Positions 7,883 through 15,637 of a DNA stretch of 15,637 bases are shown here, piece after piece. Within the stretch, counting starts at the first letter, position 1. Each line of letters starts with the position of its first letter. The notes under the pieces were generated by a model. The model was not told the DNA's origin and did not search any database. It was given only the letters and a program-made list of their open reading frames with translations. The position numbers were made by a program, and so were the translations under genes. Source of the DNA: a virus (Duplodnaviria > Heunggongvirae > Uroviricota > Caudoviricetes); IMG/VR virus record IMGVR_UViG_2600255005_000006; one strand, 5' to 3'.

Positions 7883-9022
7883 TTAACCAAGAATCAGACA
7901 ACCATGTGCCGGCTTCACTGATGAAACACCCCATGCCAGTCCAACTTCATAGCGCACCTGGCGATACTGACGATACAGTGCAATCTGGAACGTAATCCCT
8001 GAAATCGGGTCCGTAACATTCATTACATCATCAGCATTATCGCCACCTTCCGGCATTGCCGGAGTACGGGATGCCAGCAGAAACGCGTTGCGATCAAACG
8101 CCATATTTGCAGTAAAGGAGCCAACAACTGTGATTGCAGTATCATCGGCCAGATCCTGACGCAGTCCGGGCGCTGCAAGAGTAATCAGATTGCTGGTCGC
8201 TGCTGCCACAACATACTGATTCGGATCGCCAGCGAACGTAACAATCTGACCTGCAGAAATACTCCCCGAACCAGTATCAATGGAAATAAGAACATCGCCT
8301 TCTTTTTTCTCGCCATTCACGAGATAACCAGTTGCAGCAACCTTTGGCGCTCGTTTTACACCTGCCGAACTGTGAATATTGAATCCCTCCAGACGCCCCA
8401 ACACGCCCTCACGCAGTAGCTGTTCAGTGCCGGATTCATTCACTTTAAACAGTACAGACTGTTTTCCGCGCAAATTAGCAATGGCAGTGGAGCCAAGCAC
8501 CATCTGCAGATCGGTTGTCGGTGCGCCGTTATCCTCCAGAACCTGACGAGCCAGAGCAGCATCAGAAAGATCATCTTTAACACCAAACGGCGTTGTCCCT
8601 GCGGTTCCCACGGCGCGGGAAGCACCGAAATACAACGCACCAAGATCAGCCTCAACCTCGTTTGCAAGGGCGCGAAAAGCCTGCTTGAACTGATCAGCCA
8701 GAATGGTGTTGTAAGTCCCTGAAGGGCCAAGAGCCAGTTGTTCTTCACCATTCCATTTAACCGGTGCCATTTTGGATTTAGTAATTTTCACATCAACAGT
8801 GCCAATATTTTGATCACCGGTATTCGGAGCTGACGGCCCCGGTACGATATCTTCGGTTTTCGCCTCAGGCGCAACTGGCGCGGTTACCGTCTGATCTTTT
8901 GCTGCGGCGTCAGCTTTTGCGTTTTTTGCTACCGCAGGGATAAAACCTACCTGCTCACGGGATACAATATCCAGGGCGGTATAAATAGTCGGGATCAACC
9001 CGGTCAGGGTATTTCCAGCCAT
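7883..9022 (-). CDS. Major capsid (coat) protein, 379 aa
   Basis: Large ORF downstream of the scaffold-like gene and upstream of the neck genes; ATG at 9020-9022 with SD AAGGA; followed by a terminator hairpin. Confidence 0.85.
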   Translation of the reverse strand: MAGNTLTGLIPTIYTALDIVSREQVGFIPAVAKNAKADAAAKDQTVTAPVAPEAKTEDIVPGPSAPNTGDQNIGTVDVKITKSKMAPVKWNGEEQLALGPSGTYNTILADQFKQAFRALANEVEADLGALYFGASRAVGTAGTTPFGVKDDLSDAALARQVLEDNGAPTTDLQMVLGSTAIANLRGKQSVLFKVNESGTEQLLREGVLGRLEGFNIHSSAGVKRAPKVAATGYLVNGEKKEGDVLISIDTGSGSISAGQIVTFAGDPNQYVVAAATSNLITLAAPGLRQDLADDTAITVVGSFTANMAFDRNAFLLASRTPAMPEGGDNADDVMNVTDPISGITFQIALYRQYRQVRYEVGLAWGVSSVKPAHGCLILG

Positions 9023-11017: not shown

Positions 11018-12885
11018 TCTGGCAGCCTCGCCAGTTGCCTGAAGCGGTATGTGGTTTCCGTCGTCCTGGCCGTGCTGACCAGCCGCTCACTGCCGTCATC
11101 CGCTGCCACGGTCAGGCGAAGCATAAAGCTCCCCCCCTTCACCACCTTCGGCGTGTCCCAGCGCGCCAGCACCTGGTATTCCCCGCTGTCTGCGGTGACT
11201 TCTGCAGTCAGGTGCTGCACCGCGGGCGGCGTGACACCGTTCACCGTTCCGCTCTGGTCGCCGTCAAAGTACGCCCCGTTATCCACGATGGCTTCTTTCT
11301 CCGGTACATGCTGCACGGCAGTGATGGCATACGTGCCGTCATCGTTCTCACGGATACTCACACAGCGGAACAGGCGCTGGCGCAGCATCGGCAGCTTCAG
11401 CCCCCACACGCTGTATCCGGCAACGCCGTCAGGAACACGGCTCACTTTCACCTTCACACCGTCGGTGACGGACTGGACCTCCACGCTGACCGGATTCCCC
11501 TGCCCGTCAACCAGGCTTATCAGCGTGGTGCCGGAGGATGGCAGCGTGATTTCACGGTCGAGCGTCAGCGTCCGGGTCTGGCTGTTCACCGCCAGCACAC
11601 GCCCACCGATGCTGATACCGGCATAGTCATCATCGCAGATTTCAATGACATCCCCCGGTACATGGCGAAGCCCTTCAGCACCCACGCTGAAGTCCACGGT
11701 CTGCGTTTCCAGCAGCTCCGTTTTAATCAGCCACAGCCCGGCGCGGTGTGCCTGCCCCCGACTGGTACAGCCAAAGGCATCCATCTTCGTGACGTTACGG
11801 CCGTAACGGGCAATGGCCTGCGTATCCTCCACGAGCTCTGTCGCCGTCTCCCAGCCGTTGTTCGGGTCAATCCAGTTCACCTCAACGGCATTATGGCGGT
11901 CCTTCAGGGCGCTGAAGCTGTAGCGGAACGGCGCGCCATCATCCGGCATCACCACATTACTGCGGTTATAGGTCCACACCTTATCTGATGGTCGGTCCTG
12001 CACGAACGTCAGCGTCTGCCCGTTCCATACCGGCATACAGCGCATCGCCGAGCAGAAATCACTGAGCACATCCCACGCCTTGCGCTGTGTGGTCAGGTAC
12101 GCATTACAGGTGATGCGCGGCTCCGTGCCGCCAAAGCCGTCCGGCACTGACTGGTCGCAGTACTGGCCGATGACATACAGCGCCCATTTATCCACATCCG
12201 CCGCACCAAGACGTTTCCCCATGCCGTAGCGCGGATGGGTCAGCATATCCCACAGACACCAGGCCATGTTGTTGCTGTATGCCGGTTTAAACGTTCCGTC
12301 CCAGATACCGCTGTATTGCCGCGTCTGCGGGTTATAATTCGACGGCACCTGCAGAATACGCCCGCGCAGATGATAATTACGGCTCACCTGCTGACTGCCG
12401 AACTGCTCCGAGTCCACCTGCACGCCGACCAGTGCCGTGTTCGGGTAGCACTGTTTCACATCGATAATTTCGGTGTATGACGACCAGAGCGTTTTGTTCT
12501 GCAGCTGGTCTGTGGTGCTGTCCGGCGTCATCCTGCGCATCCGGATACTGAACGGGCGCGGCGGCAGGTTATCCACCACCACCGAGGCCAGATACTGTGA
12601 AGTGGTTTTACCCTTAATGGTGATGTCTTTTTCCGTCACCCAGCCACCGTTACGTTGTATCTGAACCAGCAGGCGGACTTCCGATGGATTCCTGTCCCCC
12701 TTTGAGGTGGTTTCCACCAGTGCCTGCACGCCGAAAGTAAAACGCAGACGGTCAATGTTTGCCGACGTGATGGTCCGGGTGATCGGCGTGTCATATTTCA
12801 CTTCTGTACCGAGCACCGTCTCGGAGCCGGAGGATTCAAATCCCTCCGGCGGTGTCTGCTCCTGCTCACCGGCCCGGAACACCAC
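11011..12885 (-). pseudogene. Internal fragment of lambda-like host specificity protein J (roughly lambda residues 55-690); lacks its N-terminus and C-terminal receptor-binding region
   Basis: Translation VVFRAGEQEQTPPEGFESSGSETVLGTEVKYDTPITRT... is near-identical to lambda gpJ as I recall it. Homology runs upstream to about 12927 (SEGNTNISGVT) and ends at about 11025 (RFRQLA, then RLPEW-stop versus lambda LGNYRL). Confidence 0.9.
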
Positions 12886-12929
12886 CGTGACGCCGGATAT
12901 ATTGGTATTCCCCTCACTGCCCGATAGGG

Positions 12930-13340
12930 TTGGCGGGTGGGCTAAACTTATACCAATACGCGCCGAATCCGCTGGGGTGGATTGACCCGTTAGGACTTAA
13001 ATGCTGGAGTTCGGCCAGACGTGATTACTGGAAAGCAGAAGCTAAAGCAGCGCCAAAAGGCATGTATTCATCCGTGAATATGTTAAGAATGCGTTTTGGT
13101 CTTGCTCCAAGAATTCGAGTTAAAGAATTCCATTTTAAAACAGGTACAGAAAGAATAAGAAACGTATCGCTAGAACTAAACCATCGTCATTGGCCTCAAC
13201 GCGATGGTAAGCATGTTGATATTCCATATAACCTTGAGAAAGTGACGCCCTGGGAACATGCAGCTAAAGATCCCTATAGACATCCAGGTAGTACGTTACT
13301 TGAAATACTACAAGACATTGGAAACTATAAGGGGTTTTAA
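12930..13340 (+). CDS. Orphan Rhs C-terminal toxin tip: Rhs core-end motif (PIGLAGGLNLYQYAPNPLGWIDPLGL) followed by an HNH/colicin-DNase-like domain of about 110 aa; no bona fide start codon
   Basis: Rhs PxxxxDPxGL boundary motif at 12921-12998. Downstream ELNHRHWPQRDGKHVDIPYNLEKVTPWEH resembles the colicin E9 HNH motif [28 protein letters not shown]. In-frame stop at 12888-12890; AT-rich codon usage. Confidence 0.65.
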   Translation: MAGGLNLYQYAPNPLGWIDPLGLKCWSSARRDYWKAEAKAAPKGMYSSVNMLRMRFGLAPRIRVKEFHFKTGTERIRNVSLELNHRHWPQRDGKHVDIPYNLEKVTPWEHAAKDPYRHPGSTLLEILQDIGNYKGF

Positions 13341-13341
13341 A

Positions 13342-13722
13342 ATGAGACTGGCTGAATTTATGCAATCTGATATTTATGTTGATTTTCTTAATGACTTGGA
13401 TAAGTCTCTTTCAGAAAAGATAGATAGAAAATCAAAGGTTTATGATGTTGTTGTTAACCTTATGGAAAAATGGTTGGAATATGCCTCGATGTCTTTTGAT
13501 GATTTGCATTGGGTTATATCAAATTGCAGGTCAGATTCAATAAGTTACATTGTAAAAAAACAAGTTACTTATACAGAGGCTAATGGTGGGAAAGATAATA
13601 TCATCAATCAAGCGCCTAAGATAAACTTCCCTATTGGTCATCTGATAGAGTATTATTTATTATCGAAAAGACCGAACGATTTGCTTGATTATGTGAACAA
13701 AAATTCGGATTCCCGGTTCTAA
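13342..13722 (+). CDS. Putative cognate immunity protein, 126 aa
   Basis: ATG 1 nt after the toxin TAA with SD AAGGGG 7 nt upstream; very AT-rich; followed by a terminator. Function inferred from the toxin-immunity gene arrangement; no recognisable family. Confidence 0.55.
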   Translation: MRLAEFMQSDIYVDFLNDLDKSLSEKIDRKSKVYDVVVNLMEKWLEYASMSFDDLHWVISNCRSDSISYIVKKQVTYTEANGGKDNIINQAPKINFPIGHLIEYYLLSKRPNDLLDYVNKNSDSRF

Positions 13723-13782
13723 GAAATATGTAAAGGAAATTGGGAAAATATTTTCTGAAATAAAATATTCATAATTTAAATG

Positions 13783-13816
13783 GCCGGGGAGAAAATCAAA
13801 TCTCCCCGGCTTTTTT
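13783..13816 (+). terminator. Rho-independent terminator (CCGGGGAGA-AAAUCAAA-UCUCCCCGG followed by UUUUUUAUUU), shared by the convergent immunity and SymE-like genes
   Basis: 9-bp stem with U6 on the plus strand; the SymE-like stop codon (13819-13821) sits in the T-run; the minus-strand side is followed only by an A/U-rich tract. Confidence 0.6.
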
Positions 13817-13818
13817 AT

Positions 13819-14145
13819 TTAATTATCTTTCAGCACTTCCCACATCCCGCTTTTTATTCCCTTCACCACCCGTTTAACCTGATAAAGTTCCTCCCGCAGT
13901 TCCTGTACCTCGTCACTGTCAGCGATGATGGTCAGGCACCCCTCCGAAATCTTCACCGTCACACCCCGCCCGGTATCAAATCCGGCTTCTTTCAGCCAGT
14001 CGCCCTTGAGGTGCAGGCTGGGGTGTTGTGAATAATACCGGGCTATACCGGTTGTGCGGTCCTGGTGGCGGGCTCTGACATAGCCGACTTTATAGCGGCG
14101 CTGTGTTTTGGAAATGACGTCCGCATTACTGTCGTTCTGCGGCAT
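13819..14145 (-). CDS. SymE-family (type I toxin-antitoxin, AbrB-fold) toxin homolog, 108 aa
   Basis: LHLKGDWLKEAGFDTGRGVTVKISEGCLTIIA aligns with E. coli SymE [32 protein letters not shown] as I recall it. ATG at 14143-14145 chosen; the ORF-track extension to 14325 is antisense to the PTS gene and rejected. Confidence 0.7.
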   Translation of the reverse strand: MPQNDSNADVISKTQRRYKVGYVRARHQDRTTGIARYYSQHPSLHLKGDWLKEAGFDTGRGVTVKISEGCLTIIADSDEVQELREELYQVKRVVKGIKSGMWEVLKDN

Positions 14146-15637
14146 TATGTTAGGGATTGGTAGTTCCCTGAGTAGCCATGATGTCATCACCCTCATCCCG
14201 GCATTGGGTAACCCCGTGTTGCAGGCTATCTTTACCTGGATGAGTAAAATTGGCTCGTTCGCTTTTAGCTTCCTGCCGGTGATGTTCTGTATTGCGATCC
14301 CGCTTGGTCTGGCACGTGAAAACAAAGGCGTAGCGGCGTTCGCTGGTTTCGTAGGTTATGCGGTGATGAACCTGGCGGTTAACTTCTGGTTGACCAATAA
14401 AGGCATTCTGCCAACCACCGATGCAGCTGTTCTGAAAGCCAATAACATCCAGAGCATTCTTGGGATCCAGTCGATCGACACCGGGATCCTCGGTGCGGTG
14501 ATCGCCGGTATTATCGTCTGGATGCTGCATGAGCGTTTTCATAATATCCGCCTGCCGGATGCGCTGGCATTCTTCGGCGGTACGCGCTTCGTGCCAATTA
14601 TCTCCTCGCTGGTGATGGGGCTTGTCGGTCTGGTGATTCCGTTAGTCTGGCCGATTTTTGCCATGGGTATTAGCGGCTTAGGTCATATGATCAACAGCGC
14701 GGGTGATTTCGGACCTATGCTGTTTGGTACGGGTGAACGTCTGCTATTGCCGTTTGGTCTGCATCACATTCTGGTGGCATTAATTCGCTTTACTGACGCG
14801 GGCGGCACGCAGGAAGTCTGTGGACAAACCGTCAGCGGCGCACTCACCATCTTCCAGGCGCAATTAAGCTGCCCGACCACTCACGGTTTCTCTGAAAGCG
14901 CCACGCGTTTCCTCTCCCAGGGTAAAATGCCTGCGTTCCTCGGCGGTCTGCCAGGTGCTGCATTAGCCATGTATCACTGTGCTCGCCCGGAAAACCGTCA
15001 TAAAATTAAAGGCCTACTGATTTCTGGCCTGATCGCCTGTGTTGTTGGCGGCACCACCGAACCGCTGGAGTTCTTGTTCCTGTTCGTAGCGCCAGTTCTC
15101 TACGTCATCCACGCGCTGTTAACCGGCCTCGGCTTCACCGTCATGTCTGTGCTCGGTGTCACCATCGGTAATACCGACGGCAATATCATCGATTTTGTGG
15201 TGTTCGGTATTTTGCATGGCCTGTCGACTAAGTGGTACATGGTGCCAGTGGTGGCGGCAATCTGGTTTGTCGTTTACTACGTCATCTTCCGTTTCGCTAT
15301 CACCCGCTTCAATCTGAAAACACCGGGTCGCGACAGTGAAATCGCCAGCTCAATCGAAAAAGCCGTTACCGGTGCGCCGGGTAAATCGGGTTACAACGTT
15401 CCGGCAATCCTCGAAGCCTTAGGCGGTGCCGACAATATTGTCAGCCTGGATAACTGCATTACCCGTCTGCGTTTGTCAGTGAAAGATATGTCGCTTGTTA
15501 ATGTGCAGGCGCTAAAGGACAATCGGGCAATTGGCGTAGTACAACTTAATCAACATAACCTGCAGGTTGTTATCGGGCCGCAAGTTCAGTCAGTAAAAGA
15601 CGAAATGGCTGGTCTGATGCGTACTGTTCAGGCATAA
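14108..15637 (+). CDS. malX: PTS EIICB component, glucose/maltose family (malX-like), 5'-truncated by about 20 codons relative to canonical EIICB N-termini
   Basis: IIC domain then IIB domain with active-site motif NCITRLR; aligns along its length with E. coli PtsG but is longer (at least 509 aa versus 477), fitting MalX (about 530 aa). In-frame stop at 14093-14095; only TTG 14108 or ATG 14114 available as starts. Confidence 0.8.
   Translation: MEMTSALLSFCGIMLGIGSSLSSHDVITLIPALGNPVLQAIFTWMSKIGSFAFSFLPVMFCIAIPLGLARENKGVAAFAGFVGYAVMNLAVNFWLTNKGILPTTDAAVLKANNIQSILGIQSIDTGILGAVIAGIIVWMLHERFHNIRLPDALAFFGGTRFVPIISSLVMGLVGLVIPLVWPIFAMGISGLGHMINSAGDFGPMLFGTGERLLLPFGLHHILVALIRFTDAGGTQEVCGQTVSGALTIFQAQLSCPTTHGFSESATRFLSQGKMPAFLGGLPGAALAMYHCARPENRHKIKGLLISGLIACVVGGTTEPLEFLFLFVAPVLYVIHALLTGLGFTVMSVLGVTIGNTDGNIIDFVVFGILHGLSTKWYMVPVVAAIWFVVYYVIFRFAITRFNLKTPGRDSEIASSIEKAVTGAPGKSGYNVPAILEALGGADNIVSLDNCITRLRLSVKDMSLVNVQALKDNRAIGVVQLNQHNLQVVIGPQVQSVKDEMAGLMRTVQA

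What the first reader, a model, noticed from the sequence alone, without database searches (positions are those of the whole stretch)
13819..14325. SymE-family toxin homolog beside the Rhs toxin-immunity cassette, with its 5' end overlapping the truncated PTS gene on the opposite strand
The SymE-like gene converges on the immunity gene and shares its terminator. Its first codons overlap codons 2-13 of the PTS ORF, so its promoter and leader would have to lie inside the PTS coding sequence. I saw no LexA-box-like CTGT-N8-ACAG upstream, whereas E. coli K-12 symE is SOS-regulated and controlled by the antisense sRNA SymR. Whether a SymR-like antisense RNA exists here on the plus strand near 14100-14220 is open.
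Basis: partly seen in the sequence, partly recalled or inferred. Interest (0 to 1): 0.5.

Follow-up and report, generated by a model that had tools for sequence, protein, structure and literature searches.

The report
Truncated SymE gene at assembly join
The SymE-family toxin-like gene is real and ordinary, but its "overlap" with the sugar-transporter gene is most likely an artefact of short assembly contigs pasted together, which cut off the gene's true start and its SymR-like antisense RNA.

Summary
Window 13819-14119 (minus strand) is the 3' 99 codons of a SymE-family gene (Pfam PF08845, E=2e-21). Its first 10 codons, ribosome-binding site, leader and upstream genes are missing: homology to the SymE locus stops at 14119 and malX homology begins at 14120-14123 (malX codon 27). 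The ATG at 14145 and the rest of the 168-aa ORF are antisense malX sequence read in frame.

The 1,200-nt piece 12920-14119 is 99.9% identical to an intact locus in the Escherichia ruysiae reference genome (vgrG-eagR-rhs-rhsI, then symE, an XRE-type HTH gene, primase and integrase). Both of its ends fall on the outermost copy-specific SNPs next to multi-copy repeats. The source record (Escherichia sp. TW11588, one 4.46-Mb record) shows at least five abrupt joins within 17 kb. Contig concatenation is the best explanation (confidence about 0.78); reads were not available to prove it.

No LexA box was found in the window or in the intact locus. Intact loci carry a full-length but sub-threshold Rfam symR match with the same geometry as E. 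coli K-12. An Rfam isrA match lies antisense to the coding sequence. Low interest.

The parts
13819..14119 (-). Genuine part of the SymE-family gene: codons 10/11 to the stop (TAA at 13819-13821), including the whole SymE_toxin (AbrB/SpoVT-like) domain
   Evidence: Pfam PF08845 at 76 bits, E=2.3e-21. It is 99.9% identical over 1200 nt to the E. ruysiae locus L005 8030-9228, where the gene is an intact 109-aa ORF. [quoted passage not shown]
14120..14325 (-). Fortuitous in-frame ORF extension through antisense malX. It contains the apparent ATG start at 14143-14145, which has no Shine-Dalgarno sequence upstream
   Evidence: malX homology (93.6% to E. coli) begins at 14123. The sequence upstream of the ATG is CCAATCCCTAACATA, whereas the native leader has GGAG/GAGG. 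No minus-strand promoter-like site lies in 14146-14330.
14117..14122 (.). Junction between the SymE-locus fragment and the 5'-truncated malX; probably a contig join
   Evidence: SymE-locus homology ends at 14119 and malX homology starts at 14123. The end lies 1 nt beyond the L005-specific SNPs (CGTC versus CACC) that follow a 40-nt stretch identical in all SymE copies.
14120..15637 (+). malX (PTS maltose/glucose EIICB) lacking codons 1-26 and its promoter
   Evidence: Pfam PTS_EIIC and PTS_EIIB. Alignment to E. coli SMS-3-5 malX starts at nt 79 of that gene.
13782..13811 (.). Two-way intrinsic-terminator-like hairpin between the immunity gene and the SymE gene
   Evidence: Flagged on both strands by the terminator scan. 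It is conserved in intact loci.
13949..14077 (+). Match to Rfam isrA (Salmonella IsrA antisense RNA), antisense to the SymE coding sequence
   Evidence: RF01385 at 115 bits against a gathering score of 51, E=1.8e-26, model 1-129. The same match occurs in every homologous locus tested. It may simply reflect conservation of the coding strand.
14108..14113 (+). TTGGAA: remnant of the putative -35 of the SymR-like antisense promoter. The -10, start site and RNA body are missing from the window
   Evidence: TTGGAA-16 nt-TAATAT/TAGAAT is conserved on the antisense strand of intact copies in 5 genera. Rfam symR matches start 7 nt after the -10.
12920..13340 (+). Rhs core end (…LNLYQYAPNPLGWIDPLGL) plus the C-terminal toxin domain. 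This is the left part of the same 1.2-kb fragment
   Evidence: TIGR03696 Rhs_assc_core at 23 bits, below its cut-off. Weak Tox-HNH-HHH hit, E=0.027. In L005 it is the tip of a 1550-aa Rhs protein. The fragment ends exactly at the last SNP between two Rhs copies.
13342..13722 (+). Putative Rhs immunity gene (126 aa)
   Evidence: Position immediately after the toxin domain; no family match. The gene call comes from the public collection.

Best explanation
The window holds the 3' nine-tenths of an ordinary SymE-family gene of the subfamily that flanks T6SS-linked Rhs toxin/immunity cassettes. In the organism (Escherichia sp. TW11588, cryptic clade IV, E. ruysiae) the gene is most likely intact, as it is in the E. 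ruysiae reference genome. There it is 109 aa long and converges on rhsI. An XRE-type HTH gene lies 78 nt upstream. A SymR-like antisense RNA of about 75-85 nt starts at nt 6 of the coding sequence and covers the start codon and SD. The deposited 4.46-Mb record appears to be short-read contigs joined end to end without Ns. The 1.2-kb unique piece (Rhs tip, immunity gene, most of symE) was cut at the multi-copy repeats on either side (the Rhs core, and the symE 5' end with symR, HTH and primase). It was then placed next to an unrelated contig that begins inside malX. The 'overlap', the ATG at 14145 and the 168-aa ORF follow from that join. Shown: family membership, the exact breakpoints, their coincidence with repeat edges, and the intact homologous locus with its symR-like match. 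Inferred: that the join is artificial, and that the SymR-like RNA and the HTH protein control symE expression.
For: Family: PF08845 E=2.3e-21. Breakpoints: SymE-locus homology runs 12920-14119 at 99.9% to L005, and malX homology starts at 14123. Repeat edges: the right end lies 1 nt past the copy-specific SNPs that follow a 40-nt stretch identical in all four E. ruysiae copies. The left end lies exactly on the last SNP (L005 9228) before the Rhs core that is 99.7% identical to a second copy. Both ends miss the natural cassette edges by 2-4 nt. Other abrupt joins nearby: a truncated phage head gene against an internal 1.9-kb piece of gpJ at 11029-11035; gpJ piece against Rhs tip at 12919/12920; truncated gpI against an autotransporter fragment; that fragment against the cpdB upstream region. 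The gpJ piece sits on the wrong side of the phage head genes. The flanking blocks correspond to K-12 regions 4.43 Mb and 1.70 Mb. The fused 108-aa ORF and the 496-aa MalX' occur on this one record only, among 15 billion proteins. The junction is absent from 5,426 complete E. coli genomes and from viral contigs. The record is a single 4,463,584-bp WGS entry of a strain listed with the other TW cryptic-clade strains. Genuine draft assemblies commonly break in this element: 33 of 47 and 32 of 60 blocks that carry the HTH protein have contigs under 2 kb, and one contig starts 3 nt before symE. Other assemblies with the same 1550-aa Rhs protein and a 143-aa downstream immunity gene call have an intact 109-aa symE plus the HTH gene. 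SymR-like RNA: full-length RF01809 matches of 35-52 bits in 5 loci from 4 genera, with the same geometry as K-12; the predicted fold also parallels K-12 SymR.
Against: No reads or assembly log could be examined, so the artificial nature of the join is inferred. There are no Ns at the joins. malX is not a repeat, so nothing explains why a contig should start at its codon 27. The other halves (symE codons 1-10 with symR and HTH, and malX codons 1-26) could not be found in the TW11588 record. Natural 5'-truncated SymE copies with nearby breakpoints do exist: codon 11 in L029, codon 8 in Salmonella L040. A real rearrangement is therefore not impossible.
Confidence: 0.78

Rival explanations
1. The junction is real. 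In TW11588, illegitimate recombination in a decaying prophage/island region placed an Rhs-tip/immunity/symE' cassette against a 5'-deleted malX. That would leave a promoterless, SD-less symE remnant (a pseudogene) whose ORF happens to stay open through antisense malX.
For: The sequence is continuous with no Ns. Natural 5'-truncated SymE copies are common in orphan arrays, with breakpoints at codon 8-11 or further in. The region contains prophage debris, where deletions are frequent.
Against: It requires at least five independent abrupt junctions in 17 kb, a misordered gpJ fragment, and juxtaposition of two distant chromosomal blocks. The fragment is 99.9% identical to an intact locus, so all events would have to be very recent. 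Both fragment ends sit on copy-specific SNPs rather than on the natural cassette edges. The junction occurs in one record only.
Confidence: 0.17
2. The 108-aa (or longer) ORF is a functional, expressed SymE variant. It would have a new N-terminus and be transcribed from a promoter inside malX, with regulation unlike that of K-12.
For: The ORF is open, and the SymE domain is complete. The N-terminal 10-20 residues vary across the family.
Against: There is no SD before ATG 14145 and no promoter-like site on the minus strand in 14146-14330; the two hits further upstream are at the level expected by chance. The upstream sequence is ordinary malX, 93.6% identical to E. coli. With 1 difference in 1200 nt from the intact copy, the open frame says nothing about selection.
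Confidence: 0.03
3. The isrA match on the + strand (13949-14077) marks a functional IsrA-type long antisense RNA that is still made in this window and controls the symE remnant.
For: RF01385 at 115 bits. In Salmonella, IsrA is a detected 423-nt RNA expressed inversely to the overlapping gene STM0294.1n (PMC2330248). According to the title of Acuna et al. 2020 (cited in PMC13006217), IsrA represses that gene.
Against: No + strand promoter-like site lies between the terminator (13811) and 13949. The antisense-strand terminator hairpin of intact loci (L005 7968-7935) lies beyond the fragment end. The Rfam match can be explained by conservation of the SymE coding sequence alone. The ends of IsrA could not be mapped onto this locus.
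Confidence: 0.2

Closest known systems
E. coli K-12 symE/symR type I toxin-antitoxin locus (Kawano, Aravind and Storz 2007, cited from PMC8167048; SymE is now annotated 'nucleoid-associated protein' in RefSeq)
   Same: Same Pfam family (PF08845), 37% protein identity. Intact relatives of the window gene have a full-length symR-like match that starts at nt 6 of the coding sequence, exactly as in K-12. They also share the two-hairpin fold with the anti-SD sequence in the first loop.
   Different: Below the NCBIfam equivalog cut-off (51 versus 132 bits). No LexA box. An XRE-HTH gene lies directly upstream in place of the hsd/mcr context. Always linked to an Rhs tip/immunity cassette. symR matches fall below Rfam's gathering score. 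In the window itself the whole 5' control region is missing.
Salmonella Typhimurium IsrA / STM0294.1n (iasE) (Padalon-Brauch 2008, PMC2330248; Acuna 2020, title seen in the reference list of PMC13006217)
   Same: The Rfam isrA model matches the antisense strand of the window gene at 115 bits. The Salmonella homologue also converges on the immunity gene of a vgrG-linked Rhs.
   Different: According to that title the Salmonella gene is SOS-induced, but no LexA box was found here or in the Salmonella locus examined. That Salmonella copy is naturally truncated at codon 8 and fused to antisense Rhs core. The ends of IsrA could not be mapped here.
Shigella flexneri sRNA Ssr1 (PMC4782007)
   Same: It lies next to an Rhs gene (SF0268). 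The full Rfam model sits antisense to a SymE-family ORF in L035/L036. Partial homology to window 13725-14118 on the + strand (64 bits).
   Different: Only a fragmentary match (64 bits against a gathering score of 820). The SymE copy under Ssr1 is only about 36% identical to this one.
Orphan Rhs-CT/immunity cassettes (C-terminal displacement arrays)
   Same: The window fragment starts in the Rhs core-end codons and carries a toxin tip and an immunity ORF, like the orphan modules in L005, L013 and L022.
   Different: In the 99.9%-identical reference locus this tip belongs to the full-length primary Rhs, not to an orphan. Its orphan-like look in the window follows from the fragment boundary.

Membership tests
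SymE family (Pfam PF08845) | SymE_toxin (AbrB/SpoVT-like) domain above the Pfam gathering score | tested here: met
   76.1 bits against a cut-off of 29, E=2.3e-21, profile positions 1-53 of 54
SymE family (K-12 SymE equivalog, NCBIfam NF010128) | Score above the equivalog cut-off, i.e. the same protein as K-12 SymE | tested here: not met
   51.2 bits against a cut-off of 132; the intact L005 copy scores 49.5 bits; 37% identity to K-12 SymE
symE/symR type I toxin-antitoxin system | cis-encoded antisense RNA (SymR) overlapping the 5' end and SD of the toxin mRNA | tested here: not met
   For the window: no symR match at E<=10 in 12800-14800, and the sequence beyond 14119 is malX. For intact relatives the result is inconclusive but positive: full-length RF01809 matches of 35-52 bits (gathering score 61) in the right place in 5 loci, with the K-12 control at 95 bits.
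symE/symR type I toxin-antitoxin system | LexA box / SOS control of the toxin promoter | tested here: not met
   The K-12 box was found as a control. None was found in window 14100-14400, in L005 7380-8010 or in Salmonella L040 5500-6060. This was a pattern search only.
symE/symR type I toxin-antitoxin system | Toxicity of the protein (RNA cleavage or nucleoid condensation) and its neutralisation by the RNA | not testable with these tools
   Needs expression experiments
IsrA/IasE (Salmonella) | Rfam isrA match above the gathering score, antisense to the SymE-family coding sequence | tested here: met
   115 bits against 51, window 13949-14077 + strand; the match may reflect coding-sequence conservation
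IsrA/IasE (Salmonella) | A long antisense transcript with its own promoter and terminator | tested here: inconclusive
   No + strand promoter-like site in 13811-13949. The antisense terminator-like hairpin is present in L005 but lies outside the window fragment.
Rhs toxin/immunity cassette | Rhs core-end motif PxxxxDPxGL directly before a variable C-terminal domain, followed by a small immunity ORF | tested here: met
   The motif PNPLGWIDPLGL is at the start of ORF 12930-13340. TIGR03696 scores 23 bits, below its 32.5 cut-off. In L005 the tip is part of a 1550-aa Rhs protein with RHS repeats. The immunity ORF has no family match.

The most novel reading that the evidence does not exclude
The symE/symR pair, together with the XRE-HTH gene, a 983-aa primase and a tyrosine integrase, may form the backbone of a mobile element that sits between successive Rhs toxin tips in Enterobacterales. 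In that reading symE marks the 3' edge of each tip/immunity cassette, and its conserved 5' end (codons 1-10 plus symR) is a recurrent recombination boundary. symE would then be a stabilising or regulatory module of a toxin-tip exchange element, not a free-standing SOS toxin. The window shows only a broken piece of one such unit.
Probability: 0.3. Interest if true: 0.55.

Novelty: already known. Interest (0 to 1): 0.1.

Why it matters
It matters little as a discovery. SymE-family genes of this subfamily are routinely annotated by PGAP, and an antisense RNA for the Salmonella homologue has been published. The practical value is a caution: the TW11588 record AEMF01000001.1 behaves like a chain of contigs without gap markers. 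Gene fusions, overlaps and 'truncated' genes read from it, including this one, should not be treated as biology. A secondary point is that Rfam's symR gathering score misses the Rhs-linked subfamily, so these loci look as if they lack an antitoxin when they probably do not.

Tried and rejected
1. I searched for the exact junction sequence in viral contigs: 0 hits.

2. I looked for the 'other halves' of the broken genes in the TW11588 record, using exact-protein look-ups of a second SymE copy (P0064) and two HTH variants (P0152, P0156). TW11588 was not among the carriers, so the artefact could not be proved directly.

3. I tried to map the published ends of IsrA (LT2 339338-339760) onto the locus. 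LT2 could not be fetched, and the Salmonella contig obtained (L040) has no obvious antisense terminator at the expected distance, so I dropped this.

4. I tried to read Luo et al. 2011 for the assembly method and Acuna et al. 2020. Neither is held.

5. I first took the left fragment boundary (12920) for a natural module edge, because many loci's BLAST hits start there. That is trivially caused by the window's own junction, so I rejected the inference. The real orphan-cassette edge is 2 nt further out.

6. An apparent 21/34-nt similarity between antisense malX and the SymE 5' end suggested homology-assisted recombination. Once the truly homologous 4 nt are excluded it falls to 17/34, which 1.3% of other malX positions reach. 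I treat it as chance.

7. Covariation analysis of the SymR-like RNA: the first hairpin is almost invariant, and the terminator hairpins differ too much to align. RNAalifold therefore gives little; single-sequence folds were more informative.

8. P0134 (a 71-aa SymE) turned out to be a genuine truncated copy next to an Rhs locus on the 4.53-Mb record CP026810.1 (GCA_002949455.1). It has no bearing on the artefact question.
Full report
WHAT IS IN THE SEQUENCE. The minus strand carries an ORF at 13819..14325 (168 aa from a TTG, with internal ATGs at 14196, 14187 and 14145). Its C-terminal two-thirds match Pfam SymE_toxin (PF08845) at 76 bits, E=2.3e-21. The + strand ORF 14108..15637 is a PTS EIIC+EIIB protein. 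It is malX, 93.4-93.7% identical in DNA to E. coli malX, but only from window 14123 onwards, which is nt 79 (codon 27) of the E. coli gene. Upstream on the + strand lie an Rhs core end plus toxin tip (12920/12930..13340) and a small putative immunity ORF (13342..13722). A hairpin at 13782-13811 scores as a terminator on both strands.

WHERE THE SymE GENE REALLY ENDS. I aligned the window with annotated E. coli loci (L001, L002) and with the E. ruysiae reference genome (L005). Homology to the SymE locus stops at window 14116-14119. Intact genes are 109 aa and begin ATGGCTGAACACGATATTACGCCAGAAGTC..., preceded by a GGAG/GAGG SD. The window keeps only ...CGTCATTTCCAAAAC onwards, from codon 10/11. 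The ATG at 14145, the residues MPQNDSNAD, and everything up to the TTG at 14325 are antisense malX that happens to stay in frame. No SD precedes ATG 14145, and no promoter-like site lies on the minus strand in 14146-14330. The 'overlap' also disappears with another choice of start: the public gene call starts MalX' at 14147, 1 nt from the SymE ATG.

SOURCE AND NATURE OF THE JUNCTION. Exact-protein look-ups place the fused 108-aa ORF and the 496-aa MalX' on a single record, AEMF01000001.1 (GCA_000208585.2; 4,463,584 bp). This is Escherichia sp. TW11588, cryptic clade IV.

Window 12920-14119 (1,200 nt) is 99.9% identical to L005 9228-8030 of the E. ruysiae reference genome. There it is the tip of a full-length 1550-aa Rhs protein (vgrG, eagR, rhs, rhsI). 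An intact convergent symE follows, then an XRE-type HTH gene, then a divergent 983-aa primase and a tyrosine integrase, then orphan tips.

Both ends of the 1.2-kb piece coincide with the edges of multi-copy repeats in that genome. On the right, the 40 nt before the break are identical in all four symE copies, and the piece ends 1 nt beyond the first copy-specific SNPs (CGTC versus CACC). On the left, the piece ends exactly on the last SNP (L005 9228) before the Rhs core, which is 99.7% identical to a second Rhs gene. The natural edges of orphan cassettes (GACCCGATAGGG, the DPIGL codons) and of naturally truncated symE copies (ATTTCC) lie 2-4 nt away from these points. The breaks therefore track sequence uniqueness, not a biological module edge.

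The neighbourhood contains further abrupt joins:
- a truncated phage minor-head gene abuts an internal 1.9-kb piece of gpJ (11029-11035);
- the gpJ piece abuts the Rhs tip (12919/12920), and it sits upstream of the head genes instead of downstream of gpI;
- the phage ends inside gpI against an autotransporter fragment;
- that fragment abuts the cpdB upstream region.

The flanking syntenic blocks correspond to K-12 4.43 Mb (cpdB..ytfB) and 1.70 Mb (malX..rsxC). rsxC is split into two ORFs. Genuine draft assemblies break in this same element very often, and one contig starts 3 nt before symE.

The simplest reading is that the record is a chain of contigs without gap markers, and that the symE'/malX' junction is one of the joins. 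I could not prove it. No reads or assembly description were available. The missing halves were not found in the record. I have no explanation for why a contig should start at malX codon 27. I put about 0.78 on the artefact, about 0.17 on a real rearrangement that leaves a dead remnant, and very little on a functional, newly promoted gene.

REGULATION: LexA AND ANTISENSE RNA. No LexA box is present. A 20-mer scan recovers the K-12 symE box (ACCTGTATATATCATCAGTA) as a control, but finds nothing in window 14100-14400, in the intact upstream region L005 7380-8010, or in a Salmonella homologue.

Rfam's symR model finds K-12 SymR at 95 bits and nothing in the window at E<=10. In the intact E. ruysiae locus it gives a full-length match (model 1-77) on the antisense strand at 8006->7932: 48.7 bits, below the gathering score of 61, E=1.6e-8 for that small search. 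The match starts at nt 6 of the symE coding sequence, exactly as in K-12 (symR 2336, symE ATG 2341). Equivalent matches occur in E. coli (52.4 bits), Yokenella (47.8 bits, twice), Erwinia (38.8) and Buttiauxella (35.1).

The predicted RNA folds like K-12 SymR: a 5' hairpin with the anti-SD sequence in its loop, then a terminator hairpin (-35 kcal/mol, z=-4.9, against -37.8, z=-5.3). Erwinia and Buttiauxella keep the terminator hairpin with unrelated stem sequences. A TTGGAA-16 nt-TAATAT/TAGAAT promoter-like element is conserved on the antisense strand inside symE codons 5-13, and it keeps the TAnnnT form even where the encoded residue changes.

In the window only its -35 (14108-14113) remains, because the fragment ends at 14119.

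Separately, Rfam isrA matches the + strand at 13949-14077 (115 bits), as it does in all relatives. IsrA is a 423-nt Salmonella RNA expressed inversely to the overlapping gene STM0294.1n (PMC2330248). The title of Acuna et al. 2020 (seen in the reference list of PMC13006217) states that IsrA represses that SOS-induced gene. The match could reflect coding conservation alone. I found no + strand promoter-like site for it in the window.

COMPARISON WITH WHAT IS KNOWN. The gene belongs to the SymE family by Pfam. It is not an equivalog of K-12 SymE (51 versus 132 bits; 37% identity). [quoted passage not shown] Its closest characterised relative is the Salmonella IsrA/STM0294.1n pair.

It differs from K-12 symE in three ways: it is linked to Rhs tips, it has an upstream XRE-HTH gene, and it lacks a LexA box. 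SymE genes beside T6SS/Rhs/CDI toxin clusters have been remarked on in passing in Pantoea, Erwinia and Proteus (PMC3942780, PMC7764402, PMC11278526).

VERDICT. The SymE homology is confirmed and ordinary. The feature that made the finding interesting (a 5' end buried in a truncated PTS gene, with unusual control implied) most likely comes from how the record was built. Interest 0.1.

The most novel reading still open concerns the family rather than this window. symE/symR plus the HTH, primase and integrase genes may form a mobile backbone between Rhs toxin tips (probability about 0.3). In 34 of 35 loci from more than 20 species, symE is followed within 0.6-2.7 kb by a convergent Rhs core end.

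Noticed in passing
loci L005-L038, L040 (symE on + strand near 8001 in most): In 34 of 35 loci from more than 20 Enterobacterales species, a SymE-family gene or its 5'-truncated remnant is followed 0.6-2.7 kb downstream by a convergent Rhs core-end motif (PxxxxDPxGL). Arrays alternate toxin tip, immunity gene and symE; L022 has 9 symE pieces and 8 Rhs ends. symE looks like a fixed 3' flank of each Rhs tip cassette.
   Followed up: partly
L005 3142-8330; also L044-L052, L056-L071: Between the primary Rhs/immunity pair and the first orphan tip lies a conserved unit: symE (with the symR-like RNA), an XRE-HTH gene (best NCBIfam hit is the RstR-type repressor family), a divergent 983-aa primase and a tyrosine integrase. 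Two tandem units in E. ruysiae are 92.7% identical. Orphan tips begin at the same DPIGL codons (GACCCGATAGGG). This suggests an integrase/primase element involved in toxin-tip turnover.
   Followed up: partly
L035 and L036 8014-8667 (minus strand) against the SymE-like ORF at 8001-8273 (+): The published Shigella sRNA Ssr1, described as intergenic between Rhs gene SF0268 and SF0269 (PMC4782007), lies entirely antisense to a SymE-family ORF. A partial Ssr1 match also covers window 13725-14118 on the + strand.
   Followed up: partly
L005 7932-8006, L002 5365-5439, L013 464-536 and 2398-2470, L014 and L015 7931-8006: Full-length Rfam symR matches of 35-52 bits, all below the gathering score of 61. 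Rfam's curated threshold misses the SymR homologues of the Rhs-linked SymE subfamily.
   Followed up: yes
window 11029-12919 (minus strand): An internal 1.9-kb piece of a lambda-type gpJ tail-tip gene, truncated at both ends and 98.8% identical to E. coli prophage J genes. It is placed upstream of the head genes of a different phage contig, which is itself cut in a minor-head gene (window 11035) and in gpI (L043 ~11440).
   Followed up: partly
L043 11440-12368 and L039 460-2551 (record AEMF01000001.1, 4.17-4.21 Mb): An autotransporter fragment is wedged between the phage gpI remnant and cpdB. rsxC is split into two ORFs. Chromosomal blocks that lie at 4.43 Mb and 1.70 Mb in K-12 are only 17 kb apart. 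All are signs that this single 4.46-Mb record is a draft pseudo-molecule.
   Followed up: partly
L040 5990-6357 (Salmonella enterica contig): The Salmonella symE homologue under the isrA match is naturally truncated at about codon 8 and fused to antisense Rhs-core sequence. L029 9232 has another natural truncation at codon 11. Breaks near the symE 5' end therefore recur in real genomes.
   Followed up: no
window 12930-13340: The Rhs C-terminal toxin domain has only a weak hit to Tox-HNH-HHH (E=0.027), and the immunity ORF has no family match. The toxin type is not established.
   Followed up: no
window 14120-14153 against L005 7996-8029: Antisense malX next to the junction matches the deleted SymE 5' end at 17 of 34 positions. 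Only 1.3% of other malX positions reach this level. Probably chance.
   Followed up: yes
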